Below, one piece after another: positions 3,615 to 60,990 of a stretch of DNA of 64,000 nucleotides. Origin of the DNA: Octopus vulgaris (taxonomy: Eukaryota). Position numbers and translations under genes: made by a program. The notes below the pieces were generated by a model. That model searched no databases, was not told the DNA's origin, and was given only the letters and a program-made list of their open reading frames with translations. The DNA is taken from NCBI GenBank assembly GCA_951406725.2, contig OX597826.1:65410001-65474000 (forward strand), in the 5' to 3' direction. Position 1 is the stretch's first letter; every line of letters starts with the position of its first letter.

Positions 3615-3794
3615 CTTTGGATTTGCTTGGATCAATTTTCACGACTGGAGGACATTTAAAGTCAGTTTTCCATTGTTGATCATCACCACATATTAATTTC
3701 TGAGAACTCTTAAATGGTGAAATACACTCACTGCCAATTACTGTTTCACTACAGTTTACTGTTCTATTGCAGATGGAAGTAACGTTGGGACACA
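3615..3794 (-). CDS. Sushi/CCP-like module exon with 11-codon extension (180 bp, phase 1-1)
   Basis: cccttccag|TG TGT...TCC AAA G|gtattt; VCPNVTSICNRTVNCSETVIGSECISPFKSSQKLICGDDQQWKTDFKCPPVVKIDPSKSK; overlaps ORF 3361..3795. The donor position is less certain than the acceptor. Confidence 0.8.
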
Positions 3795-3929
3795 CTGGAA
3801 GGGTGGAAAAAAATTAATTTACAATAAATAGCTATCTTCAATCAGAAAATACATATATACACACCCCTTCAAATACACACATACTTACAAATGTATATAT
3901 ATATATATATATATATGGACATCTTCATA

Positions 3930-4148
3930 TACGAAGGAGTGCTGAAAAGTTCCTGGCTTTGGGTAAAAGAAAATACAGGAGGATCAGTTAATTATAATGT
4001 TATTCAACATATCCCCCTCATATTCACACACATATTGCAACATCTTTCAGTTTTTCTAAGCCCTGCAAAAGAACTCGGGAGATTGGGCCTCCAGCCAGGC
4101 CTTTTGCTATACCCGTAATGTCAGGAAATTTTCAGCTCTCCCCTTGTA
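3930..4148. mobile_element. Mariner-type MITE
   Basis: TA-cgaaggagtgctgaaaagttcctgg ... tcaggaaattttcagctctccccttg-TA imperfect TIRs. Confidence 0.7.
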
Positions 4149-4519
4149 TGTGTATACATAAGAATATGATATAAATAATATATATCTATAGGACAGCCCT
4201 GAAAGAAAAGAAGGATGATCATGTGTGGAAAAGAATGATGGACAATGGTCACATGTGAGCAATGAGAGAGAGTAAAGGAGAAAGAGGGAGAGAGAGAGAG
4301 AGAGACAGACAGACAGACAAATAGACAGGCAGACTGACAAAAAGGCAGACAGACAGACAGATAGAAAATGGTGAAGGGGAGAAAAAAGGAATTAGAGAAA
4401 GAATGAGAGAGAAAACAATAGGTGGGGGAAACAGTATAGAGTAGAGTTGTATCAAAAACATTAAAATAAACTTACTTGGAAATAATATTTATATTATTTA
4501 TATTATTATTTGATTGAAC

Positions 4520-4840
4520 ACGATGCAGTCCTGAGGGACATGGTCTCATGGACCCACGTTTTCATCGGAAACAACACCATGAGAAGACCTCTCATCCAAC
4601 CTTACTCAGGACCTTATTGTGTTCTTTCTCATTCTAACAAACATTTCACCATTGACTGTGGTGGTTCCAGAGACACTGTCTCTGTTGATAGACTTAAAAG
4701 GGCCTATACAGATGCACATACCCAGAAACTTCATACACCCTCTACACACACTACTTCATATACATCTTCCCCACCTCCACCCATACATGGAATGACAACC
4801 TGTAGAGGCTGTCACATCCATAAGTCCATGAGACTTTGCA
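4520..4840 (+). mobile_element. Gypsy LTR retrotransposon integrase C-terminal (GPY/F) fragment
   Basis: THVFI...RRPLIQPYSGPYCVL..SNKHFTI...DTVSVDRLKRAY. Confidence 0.8.
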
Positions 4841-5277
4841 AGATTATATATATATATGAACTTGCACTAAATGACTGTCGTTTTCTCATTTTTGTATATT
4901 TGCCTTTTATTGTATTTGTAATATTGCTTTTCCTGATGTATTTGTGTTTTTACCTTCTTTGAACATTTCACACTGCATTTTTTTTTCTGCATTACTGTTG
5001 CATGTATCAATTTGCAATGTCAGTGAAGGGTACTGTAGCAAGTCAGAAAAGCTATTTTTGTTATCATATTGTAGCCTAGTTCTGCAATAGCAACTCCAAC
5101 CAGCCAGAGCTGAGCACATATTAATGCCAAAGGCAGCTCTCTGACCGAGAAGAGTTAAGTGGGTGTTTGGACCAGTTAGCAAAAAGACAACAAACCAGCA
5201 ACATTGGCTGTTAAGCATAGGAACTGCCCCTTTGTTTTTCTGACCAACTTTGCACTGCTAGCTCTGAATTATATCAA

Positions 5278-5507
5278 TTTCTTTACTACCCACAAGGGGC
5301 TAAACACAGAGAACAAACAAGGACAGACAAACGGATTAAGTCGATTATATCGACCCCAGTGCATAACTGGTACTTATTTAATCGACCCCGAAAGGATGAA
5401 AGGCAAAGTTGACCTCAGTGGAATTTGAACTCAGAACATAGTGGCAGACGAAATAACGCTAAGCATTTTGCCCGGTGTGTTAACGATTCTGCCAGCTCGC
5501 CGCCTTC
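5278..5507 (-). mobile_element. Full-length SINE with 17-bp target-site duplication
   Basis: gctctgaattatatcaa at 5261-5277 and 5508-5524; family copies at ~47945-48175, 50895-51140, 58120-58272. Confidence 0.9.
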
Positions 5508-57702: not shown

Positions 57703-58872
57703 TCATGCACAGTTTATCTCGATATGAGATCACTATGTCACGTACATATGGTTGTGAGGCATGTGCCTGGTGTAGCCTTATCAGACGGGTAGTCATGATG
57801 GGTATGCTACGCTTTGTATATTTGACCCCAGTGTCACTTTTTTGGCATGCACTGCTCTCTCACTCAAGAAGAAGAAGAAGAAGAAAGTACTGCTTGTTTG
57901 AGGTCCTTGTTGTGACTTGACAGACAGTACAAACTGCCAGTAGACAATATCTTCAGTCAACAACATCCAAATATTGGATATTGTGCAACATCTTAAATAA
58001 TAATAATAATAATAATAATAATAATAATAATAATAATAATAGTAATAATAATAGTAATAATAATAATAATAATTTCTACTATAGGCAGGAGGCCTAGATT
58101 TTGTGGGTAGGAAAAGAGTCAATCACTGGTACTTAATTTATTGACCCTGAAAGGATGAAAGGCAAACTCAACCTTGGTGGAATTTGAACTCAGAATTTTG
58201 TCTATTGTGACAGACAGAATACCACTAAGCATTTCACCCAGCATGCTAACGATTCTGCCAGTTCACCACCTTAATAATAACAATAATAATAATAGTAATA
58301 ATAATAATAACAGTAACTACTCACCATGTTTGAGAAGCAGAAATAATTATATTACAGAGTAAAATCCAGATTGTATTGGGTACAAATTTGGGCTGGAAAA
58401 CAATAATTGATAGTAACAATAACAATAACAATCATCATCATCATCATCATCATAATAATAATAATAATAATAATAATAATAATAATAATAATAATAATAA
58501 TATTAATAATAATAATAGTGTGCTGAAAGGAATTTTGGGGTGTTTGACTAAATCACCTCTGGAAACATGAGTGTTTCATTCATCATCCTTAAACAAACCT
58601 TATTCAGGGACCTTTTGAACGGGATGAGTTACTCGACCAGAAGATAATTCAAACTGGACCCCACCTGCAAGGTCATGTGCTGTTTATCTTGATATGAGAT
58701 TACCATGTCGCGCACGTATGGTTGTGATGCATGTACCTAGTGTACCCTTATCAGACGGGTAGTCATGATGGGTATACTGGGCTTCGCATATTTTACCCCA
58801 GTGTCACTTTGATGGCATGCACTGCTCTCTCACTCAATAATAATAATAATCTTTTGGATTAAAATATTTTAG

Positions 58873-59305
58873 TCATAGGAGTGGCTATGTGGTAAGTAGC
58901 TTGCTTACCAACCACATGGTTCCCGGTTCAGTCCCACTGCATGGTACCTTGGGCAAGTGTCTTCTACTATAGCCTCGGCCGACCAAAGCCTTGTGAGTGG
59001 ATTTGGTAGACGGAAACTGAAAGAAGCCCATCGTATATATGTATATATATATGTGTGTGTGTGTGTGTGTGTGTGTGTGTGTGTGTGTGTTTGTGTGTCT
59101 ATGTTTGTGTCCCCCCCCCCCCAACATCACTTGACAACCGATGGTGGTGTGTTTATGTCCCCATAACTTAGCAGTTCGGCAAAAGAGACCGATAGAATAA
59201 GTACTAGGCTTACAAAGAATAAGTCCTGGGATCGATTTGCTCGACTAAAGGCGGTGCTCCAGCATGGCCACAGTCAAATGACTGAAACAAGTAAAAGAGT
59301 AAAAG
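58873..59305 (+). mobile_element. tRNA-derived SINE
   Basis: Same family as 2416-2808. Confidence 0.85.
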
Positions 59306-59460
59306 TTTAAAATGGATTATATTTAATTGGATAAATATGTTAAAAATAAAGTTGGCTATTCCCTATTTTAGACAAAGTGCAACTAGTCATAGCTAACATT
59401 TCTATGGCTAAAATATTTGATAATAAATGTGTGAATTTAGTTAAGGCAAAGAGATGCATA

Positions 59461-59858
59461 TCATTATATATATAAAAGAGAGGTTGTGTGCTGTCTGTCT
59501 CCTACGATTTAGATTCCTAACTACTCCCACATTTTGCGGTGCAGTTTAACCAAAACCGGGTATCTTATAGTCGTGATTCATATCGAGCCCTTCTGGGTAT
59601 TAGCGCGCATCTATGATGAGTCTACAATTTTAAAAAAAATTACCATCAATTTTTCCCATTTTTAATGCAATTTTGGCATATATAAGGGAAGTAACTCTCT
59701 AAAAATTTATTATTAAATCTCAGAACGTAAAAAGCTACAGTAACACCCCCCACTTTGTGGTTAGCCATATTGAGATGGCTATTATACTTTACATCTCTAA
59801 AAATGCTTATATAGTTATTTCCCTTACAAATCCGAGCAACGCCGGGCGATACTGCTAG
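59461..59858 (+). mobile_element. Non-autonomous Helitron
   Basis: A|TCattatatatataaaa ... ccgagcaacgccgg hairpin ... CTAG|T; no TSD. Confidence 0.7.
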
Positions 59859-60927
59859 TATTAAATACAGGGTGATTCAAAAGTCTCTATACATAGGAAA
59901 AATTTATGTGTTTACAAGAGGAGGAGGGGAGGAGGAGGGGCGGGAGGAGGAGGAGATGGGGTGGGGGAGGAGATGGGAGGGGAGGGGAGGGGATGATGAG
60001 GGGAGGGAGGAGGGGGAGGAGGATAATTTACCTTATCTTATCTAACTAATTTTACCCCTGCCAAATTTCTTTTATATACTCAAAGATCGGCGATAATTTT
60101 CTGAAACAGTGACCAGATTAGGTTATGATGCTTTTAATATATTTAGGGAAGGCCATTTACTTAGTTGATGTAGTTTTTGTAAGGTAATGAAAAAATGATT
60201 TTTTACTAAGTCAAAAATGCAGTATAAAAAACACCTGATCTTGTCCCACTCCTATCCATTTTTCTGAAAGTTATGAGGAAAACCAGTGGGTTGGTATACA
60301 TTTCCCAAAACTCCTCTCGCTACCCCCTCGGAAATTTTTACCCAACATACATGGAATCTACGGCATCTGAAAATTTCGTTAAAAAGTATCCATTTTCCTG
60401 TTACGAGGCGGGGAAAAACGAGTAGGCGCTCGGGACGGCCCTTCCGTTTGCTACCGCAGGACCCCACAAGAAACACATATTGCCTACGTAACACTAAGTT
60501 ACTGTCGCGGCAAATGACCCTTAGATGACACTCTCACCTGGTCAGGTGAAAAGAAAAGAAACAGAAAATAATACTGATCCAATTGGAATAGCTTTGATCA
60601 TAGGTCTGTTCGATTACGATTAACTTGTAAAACTAGAATTTTTCAAACTGACGATAAGTAACTTGTCAATAGTTTGTTATTTGATAACAAATAAGTAATC
60701 TCACTTTAAACTATGTTCTTTTAAATACTATGCTGCACTCCACTTAATTCCTCTATGTCACCGCTTAATTGTTAATAAATAACATAAATGTAAGAAAAAT
60801 AGTCGTAAAGGCCAGAACAGTTGTAAAATTCGAGCAATTTCTGCATAATTTATATACAAAATAAAAAGGAAGACCAGGTTTTTCAAATCACTAAAATAAA
60901 ACGATTGAGAAATTACAAGTTACTTAC

Positions 60928-60990
60928 ATTTATCATCGTGGTATCTTGAATATTTGAATTATTGAAGTAAAAAGGTGTTTAAATAATGAA
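60928..60990 (-). CDS. Putative exon 1 (5' UTR plus start) of Cys-rich Sushi-like repeat gene; 5' end uncertain
   Basis: Minus strand reads ...ccacgATGATAAAT|gtaagt, a consensus donor at 60927-60922. The terminal AT joined to the first G of the exon at 53621 forms AT|G in frame with a signal peptide (MAWCLLLQFILL...). Confidence 0.45.

What the first reader, a model, noticed from the sequence alone, without database searches (positions are those of the whole stretch)
3615..60990. Hidden ~57 kb gene for a secreted or surface protein built from eight 49-aa six-Cys mini-Sushi modules
Seen: seven 147-bp exons and one 180-bp exon, all phase 1-1 with canonical AG/GT, all open, sharing C-x6-C-x5-C-x8-C-x11-C-x5-W-x5-C. 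They are preceded by an exon with a signal peptide and another 6-Cys domain. The spliced product is roughly 470 aa with many N-glycosylation sequons. Established: Sushi/CCP domains end in C-x(n)-W-x(5-6)-C, often contain GS-x-C, and are encoded by phase 1-1 exons. Inference: at 49 aa and lacking the F-x-C-x-x-GY-x-L-x-G segment, this is a shortened, possibly lineage-specific module in an uncharacterised recognition or adhesion protein.
Basis: partly seen in the sequence, partly recalled or inferred. Interest (0 to 1): 0.85.

Follow-up and report, generated by a model that had tools for sequence, protein, structure and literature searches.

The report
Octopus surface protein with mini-Sushi repeats
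This is a real octopus gene for a probable cell-surface glycoprotein whose outer part is a chain of unusually short Sushi-like modules, five of them made by very recent copying of one 7.8-kb block; the family was found only in octopods and its function is not shown.

The parts
60928..60936 (-). Exon 1 coding part (Met-Ile-Asn), donor GTAAGT, phase 0
   Evidence: homologues P0001 and P0003 begin Met-Ile-Lys-Pro-Lys. Least certain exon because of its size.
58325..58392 (-). Exon 2, signal-peptide-like hydrophobic stretch, phase 0-2
   Evidence: KD 2.5 over 11 residues; tblastn 73% to P0001 1-26. No signal-peptide predictor was run.
53414..53562 (-). Exon 3, head domain A, CC-x1-C-x12-C-x12-C-x1-C, phase 2-1; fold unresolved
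   Evidence: 47/49 identical to P0001, 42/49 to P0003; model pLDDT about 50
45958..46104 (-). Module 1 exon, 147 bp, phase 1-1 (family-wide first module)
   Evidence: 47/47 to P0001, 40/47 to P0003; model pLDDT 84.7
42509..42655 (-). Module 2 exon (identical to modules 3-6)
34672..34818 (-). Module 3 exon
26840..26986 (-). Module 4 exon
19054..19200 (-). Module 5 exon
11130..11276 (-). Module 6 exon
6145..6291 (-). Module 7 exon (11 base differences from modules 2-6)
3615..3794 (-). Module 8 exon, 180 bp, with an 11-residue linker; donor at the same place as in O. sinensis model P0002
   Evidence: 47/47 to P0002
6450..45326 (.). Array of five ~7.8-kb tandem units, each holding one identical module exon, a U6 copy and retroelement fragments; units 3-4 and 5-6 look like one 15.6-kb doubling

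Best explanation
The gene encodes a type I membrane glycoprotein of a small octopod family: signal peptide, six-Cys head domain A, a chain of 47-49-residue modules, then (beyond the window) a transmembrane helix and an unstructured acidic tail. Each module is most likely a shortened CCP/Sushi-derived beta-sandwich with disulfides 1-35, 14-23 and 8-47 (module numbering): the usual second CCP cysteine and the G-Y-x-L-x-G loop are gone and a new cysteine at position 8 takes over the bond to the last cysteine. It most likely works like a selectin or similar stalked receptor: head A plus module 1 binds a partner on another cell, matrix or microbe, and the glycosylated middle modules set how far the head stands from the membrane. 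Because each module is one phase 1-1 exon, unequal crossing-over of a 7.8-kb exon-plus-intron block adds or removes modules in frame. Shown: exon anatomy, open frame, tandem array, homologue architectures, octopod-only hits. Inferred: CCP ancestry (about 0.65), disulfide pairing, membrane anchor of this gene (about 0.75), head-on-stalk function (about 0.45).
Confidence: 0.45

Rival explanations
1. The modules themselves are the binding surfaces, as in complement regulators or nematode TGM proteins, and the middle modules are diversifying under pressure from pathogens or conspecific cells.
For: Modules 6 vs 7 differ by about 10.5 nonsynonymous and 0.5 synonymous changes; modules 6/8 and 7/8 have dN about equal to dS despite six fixed Cys. 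Among 7 middle and last modules, 19 of columns 1-32 vary but only 1 of columns 33-47. TGM proteins show that CCP repeats can be remade into binding units (PMC10516467, passages).
Against: No pair shows a significant excess of dN (one-sided Fisher p 0.14, 0.61, 0.55); exon divergence is below that of flanking intron (0.14-0.28); five identical copies add length, not diversity. dN about equal to dS fits a loosely constrained spacer equally well.
Confidence: 0.2
2. In this lineage the gene makes a secreted or alternatively anchored product: the transmembrane exon is skipped or lost, or the intron after module 8 is retained and supplies a weak hydrophobic anchor.
For: P0002 runs from module 8 into the tail with no hydrophobic segment. 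Read-through of the module 8 donor is open for 84 codons with a 19-residue KD of 1.97 followed by basic residues, whereas the other five donors tested stop within 6-9 codons.
Against: P0002 is a 5'-incomplete automatic model. The orthologue P0003 and three paralogous genes have strong TMs (KD above 3). Intron read-through also yields hydrophobic ends in the short models P0005 and P0006, so T-rich introns do this readily.
Confidence: 0.15
3. A divergent TNF-receptor-like signalling protein: domain A is a single cysteine-rich domain and the tail recruits TRAF adaptors.
For: UniRef names P0003 'TNFR-Cys domain-containing protein'. Domain A has a core C-x2-C-x12-C-x12-C that survives in the four-Cys Argonauta form and loosely recalls a TNFR B module (recalled). 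A TRAF6-like PxExx-acidic motif (recalled) occurs twice in P0002 (shuffle p 0.017, one repeated segment) and once in P0003 (p 0.12).
Against: No Pfam TNFR hit at E up to 1-10; a recalled PROSITE-style TNFR pattern matches 0 of 15 proteins; domain A lacks the CXXCXXC/CXXCXXXC signature given in bioRxiv 10.1101/2024.07.27.603686 (passages); TRAF2-like motifs are at chance level in 6 of 6 tails and TRAF6-like motifs are absent from 4 of 6; no death domain by Pfam.
Confidence: 0.1
4. The gene is real but the array is over-assembled: the true middle-module number is lower (for example three), with units 3-4 and 5-6 being one segment placed twice. Not exclusive of the other readings.
For: Units 3 and 5 differ at only 4 of 6336 clean columns, and units 4 and 6 share 8 variants. 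The O. sinensis models break at this array.
Against: 40 substitution sites with 26 transitions to 14 transversions and shared patterns between alternate units look like mutations in real copies; at least three unit types differ by 14-31 sites; O. bimaculoides also has near-identical middle modules. Identity of the exon in all five units is expected by chance (p 0.40).
Confidence: 0.25
5. The module is not CCP-derived but an independent small disulfide beta fold, or nearer to the class B GPCR hormone-binding domain or fibronectin type I.
Against: CCP domains fill 26 of 50 rows against at most 7 hormone-binding and 4 fibronectin type I rows (my assignment); the ending C-x5-W-x5-C and hydrophobic-C-N/G at positions 7-9 match the CCP pattern as I recall it; one module per exon is as in C4BP (PMC2118859, abstract).
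Confidence: 0.3

Closest known systems
Six-cysteine CCP/Sushi modules (PAPP-A CCP2; selectin SCRs)
   Different: 47 residues from first to last Cys against 58; spacing 6-5-8-11-11 against 14-9-3-14-12; no Cys at the CCP second position and a new Cys at position 8; no Pfam Sushi hit.
Selectins (architecture only)
   Same: N-terminal head, varying number of Sushi-type spacers, one TM, non-catalytic tail, heavy glycosylation (PMC5820395, passages).
   Different: No C-type lectin or EGF domain by Pfam; head is a 49-residue six-Cys domain of unknown fold; tails are 34-249 residues and low in complexity.
Heligmosomoides TGM family
   Same: Lineage-specific family built by repeating a CCP module changed beyond sequence recognition, with exon modularity (PMC10516467, passages).
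   Different: TGM domains are lengthened (about 80 residues, two exons each); these are shortened, single-exon and mostly membrane-anchored. No sequence relation was found.
Class B and adhesion GPCR hormone-binding domain
   Different: No Pfam hit; tandem repeats of 1-8 copies before a single TM are unlike these receptors (recalled).
Octopus sinensis LOC115229376 and XP_036364299; O. bimaculoides A0A0L8H5C1
   Same: Same gene or its orthologue: modules 1 and 8 are 47/47 identical to the O. sinensis models.
   Different: The O. sinensis models are two fragments, one ending by intron read-through on a 104-kb contig and one named 'ribosome-binding protein 1-like'; none describes the module.

Membership tests
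Sushi/CCP (Pfam PF00084) | Profile match above the family threshold | tested here: not met
   No Sushi row for 5 window exons, 10 homologues or 6 alignment members at E up to 1-10
Sushi/CCP (Pfam PF00084) | About 60 residues per module | tested here: not met
   49 per exon, 47 from first to last Cys; 60-residue repeats in PMC2118859 (abstract)
Sushi/CCP (Pfam PF00084) | Four core Cys at CCP spacing, including the F/Y-x-C-x-x-G-Y cysteine | tested here: not met
   No Cys between positions 23 and 35 in the standard modules; motif absent; motif itself recalled
Sushi/CCP (Pfam PF00084) | Conserved Trp between the last two Cys | tested here: met
   W41 invariant in the 13 rows of alignment A5
Sushi/CCP (Pfam PF00084) | Small all-beta CCP fold | tested here: inconclusive
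Sushi/CCP (Pfam PF00084) | Disulfides I-III and II-IV | not testable with these tools
   No coordinates or register returned; 1-35, 14-23, 8-47 inferred from spacing and co-loss
Sushi/CCP (Pfam PF00084) | One module per symmetrical phase 1-1 exon | tested here: met
   8 of 8 exons; shared by many extracellular module types (recalled), so weak
TNF receptor superfamily | Cysteine-rich domain by Pfam or CXXCXX(X)C signature | tested here: not met
   signature from bioRxiv 10.1101/2024.07.27.603686
TNF receptor superfamily | CRD fold of domain A | tested here: inconclusive
   Domain A modelled at pLDDT about 50; fold searches barely cover it
TNF receptor superfamily | Death domain or TRAF-binding tail | tested here: inconclusive
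   No death domain by Pfam; TRAF-like motifs mostly at chance level
Selectins | N-terminal C-type lectin plus EGF domain | tested here: not met
   No such Pfam rows in P0001-P0010
Type I membrane protein | Signal peptide plus one TM after the ectodomain | tested here: inconclusive
   Signal-like stretch in the window; TM in the orthologue and paralogues but this gene's 3' exons lie outside the window and P0002 lacks a TM

The most novel reading that the evidence does not exclude
An undescribed octopod-only family of clustered cell-surface recognition receptors (immune or self/non-self) built on a new miniature CCP variant with a swapped disulfide, in which ectodomain length and middle-module sequence vary between individuals through unequal crossing-over of whole exon-intron blocks.
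Probability: 0.2. Interest if true: 0.75.

Novelty: new variant of a known kind. Interest (0 to 1): 0.45.

Why it matters
It defines a module and a gene family that no profile library searched here recognises and that public annotation splits or misnames. If the fold reading holds, it shows that a CCP domain can lose about 10 residues and rewire one disulfide and still be used as a repeat. The locus also catches exon-level module expansion in the act (units 0.06-0.5% apart). Octopus cell-surface recognition molecules are poorly known, so a fast-changing, clustered, lineage-specific receptor family is a usable lead. Interest is held down because no function, tissue or ligand is shown, and lineage-specific Cys-repeat surface proteins that expand by phase 1-1 exon duplication are common in animals (own knowledge).

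Tried and rejected
Expression: the run search on window 42400-42800 listed no RNA holder on record, and no reads or contigs were laid, so no splice junction was seen in reads. No whole genome is held, so the 3' exons and neighbouring paralogues could not be read. Pfam, PDB sequence and ESM Atlas searches with single modules or domain A gave nothing usable. CIMIP3 (PF22581) hits stay under the cut-off (best 26.6 against 27 bits) and were rejected. P0010 (E 9e-7) matches only 16 residues and was dropped from the module tree and counts. Foldseek gave no match at E 0.001 for either model; no TNFR domain appeared in the rows shown of any fold list, which does not exclude it. Positive selection among modules was not significant; my first count overstated it. 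TRAF motifs were mostly at chance level. No further in-frame exon was identified in 1-3614 or 3795-6144. Literature: five gene or protein ids were found in 0 papers; topic searches were read as listings and none names this family; supplements of PMC13230822 (1 small file), PMC9712504 (3 files, 1 unreadable), PMC11202624 (1 file) and PMC9815951 (1 small file) had no hit for the ids; large marker tables and bioRxiv supplements that I could not see may list the genes. The three uncharacterised genes discussed in bioRxiv 10.1101/2022.06.11.495763 section 30 do not fit by their description; whether its 'tnfr' marker is related was not determined. Earlier scan findings: none. A complex prediction was not run.
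Full report
Observation. A six-frame scan finds eight copies of the six-Cys/Trp pattern, all on the minus strand, with their first-to-last Cys spans at 45962-46102, 42513-42653, 34676-34816, 26844-26984, 19058-19198, 11134-11274, 6149-6289 and 3652-3792. The strict pattern occurs 8 times in the window and 0 times in 100 block shuffles. Each copy is bounded by a pyrimidine tract with AG and by a GT donor; seven exons are 147 bp, one is 180 bp, all phase 1-1. Three upstream exons (60928-60936, 58325-58392, 53414-53562) give a start, a signal-like stretch and a different six-Cys domain, here called A. 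The joined frame is open for 478 codons, holds 16 sequons and has no stop.

What was missed. Modules 2-6 are identical at all 147 bases. They lie in five tandem units with periods of 7837, 7832, 7786 and 7924 bases, 98.3-99.3% identical by blastn with introns included. Outside simple repeats the units differ at 40 of 6336 columns (pairwise 4-31), 26 transitions and 14 transversions. Units 4 and 6 share 8 variants, and units 3 and 5 differ at only 4 sites, which points to a last doubling of a 15.6-kb pair. That last step could be an assembly error; at least three unit types look real. An invariant exon is expected at this divergence (p 0.40), so the identity says nothing about selection.

Homologues. 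A profile of the four distinct modules found 2 proteins in the word-indexed search and 9 among 1.84 billion representatives at E 0.001; a profile of A plus module 1 added two more. All named hits are Octopus sinensis, O. vulgaris, O. bimaculoides or Argonauta hians; one is an unnamed assembly fragment and one (P0010) is a 16-residue chance match that I dropped. No squid or other mollusc was hit, but only one full HMMER search was available and it used a narrow profile, so 'octopod-only' is provisional. The O. sinensis annotation holds this gene in two pieces. LOC115229376 (P0001; signal, A, module 1, one middle module) ends with the same intron read-through that follows modules 2-7 in the window. 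XP_036364299 (P0002, named 'ribosome-binding protein 1-like') starts inside a middle module and contains module 8. Modules 1 and 8 are 47/47 identical to these models and A is 47/49, whereas the middle modules are 43/47 and 41/47. The O. bimaculoides orthologue P0003 has signal, A, four modules, a transmembrane helix (283-301) and an acidic tail. Paralogues carry A plus 1, 2 or 3 modules and a helix. In O. vulgaris, O. sinensis and Argonauta the paralogues share one longest-contig length per species, and the O. vulgaris accessions are consecutive, which suggests a cluster. These are automatic models: they agree with the junctions I predict, but they are not read evidence.

Disulfide model (inferred). 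PAPP-A CCP2 has bonds 1205-1249, 1220-1230 and 1234-1262 (PMC9780223, passages). By spacing, module Cys1, 14, 23, 35 and 47 answer to 1205, 1220, 1230, 1249 and 1262. The partner 1234 has no counterpart and Cys8 is extra, so I propose 1-35, 14-23 and 8-47. Of 24 distinct modules, 21 keep Cys14 and Cys23, 2 (one orthologous pair) lose both and 1 loses Cys23 alone. The tools returned no residue register, so this is untested.

Domain A. Its pattern is CC-x1-C-x12-C-x12-C-x1-C, reduced to C-x2-C-x12-C-x12-C in one Argonauta gene. UniRef calls P0003 TNFR-Cys, but Pfam gives no TNFR row, a recalled TNFR pattern matches 0 of 15 proteins and the signature given in bioRxiv 10.1101/2024.07.27.603686 (passages) is absent. 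Its fold is open.

Selection. Modules 6/7, 6/8 and 7/8 give dN 0.094, 0.130, 0.198 and dS 0.020, 0.123, 0.194; none is a significant excess (p 0.14-0.61), and flanking introns differ more (0.14-0.28). Module 1 against the rest gives dN/dS near 0.5. Variation among middle and last modules sits in columns 1-32 (19 variable) and spares columns 33-47 (1 variable). This fits weak constraint on a spacer, and also mild diversification.

How it most likely works. A type I glycoprotein holds a conserved head (A plus module 1) on a stalk of glycosylated mini-CCP modules whose number changes by in-frame exon duplication: four modules in O. bimaculoides, eight here, one to three in paralogues. Selectins use Sushi repeats in this way (PMC5820395, passages). 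The tails are low-complexity with no Pfam domain, and TRAF-like motifs are mostly at chance level, so adhesion, capture or adaptor-based signalling is likelier than catalysis. I give this 0.45. Against it: P0002 has no helix, domain A is not more conserved across species than the middle modules, and nothing about tissue or ligand is known. The rivals are listed with their tests.

Novelty. Five ids were found in 0 papers, topic searches read as listings named no such family, four papers' supplements had no hit, and passages of PMC9068888 on cephalopod-specific families name reflectins, suckerins and beak proteins only. Subscription papers and large tables were not visible. The closest precedent in kind is the nematode TGM family of remodelled CCP repeats (PMC10516467, passages).

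Noticed in passing
window 9880-9984, 17805-17909, 25590-25694, 33422-33526, 41260-41364 (minus): One U6 snRNA copy per tandem unit (Rfam RF00026, 98.2 bits each), with non-standard pairs in the 5' stem; probably a pseudogene carried along by the duplication.
   Followed up: partly
window 3361-3614 (minus): Reading through the module 8 donor stays open for 84 codons, with a weak hydrophobic stretch followed by basic residues; the other five donors tested stop within 6-9 codons. Decayed copies of this segment follow module 7 (about 5900-6060) and lie in the unit at about 9300-9480.
   Followed up: partly
P0009 (Argonauta hians GAB1601604.1): Domain A plus one module is joined to a region with six further hydrophobic segments after the signal: either a multi-pass receptor with this ectodomain or a fused gene model.
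   Followed up: no
P0001 middle module versus window modules 2-6 and 7: The O. sinensis middle module looks like a mosaic or ancestor of the two window types (4 and 6 differences), while modules 1 and 8 are identical. The signal region also differs at several residues.
   Followed up: partly
window about 8360-9250 (plus) and 10258-10650 (plus), repeated in the other units: Frames that look like a LINE reverse-transcriptase fragment and a transposon-derived fragment (identification from memory, not searched).
   Followed up: no
window 56083-57320 (minus) and 57277-57701: Broken frames resembling a retroelement reverse transcriptase (recalled likeness) next to a 26-bp minisatellite of 17 copies, in intron 2.
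   Followed up: no
window 6767-7233 and the same place in each unit: A ~470-bp segment with an inverted copy, 92-94% identical, in each unit; could be a foldback or MITE-like element near the unit junction.
   Followed up: no
P0002, P0004, P0014 tails: The cytoplasmic tails also contain internal repeats (about 22-33 residues) that vary between isoforms and species.
   Followed up: no
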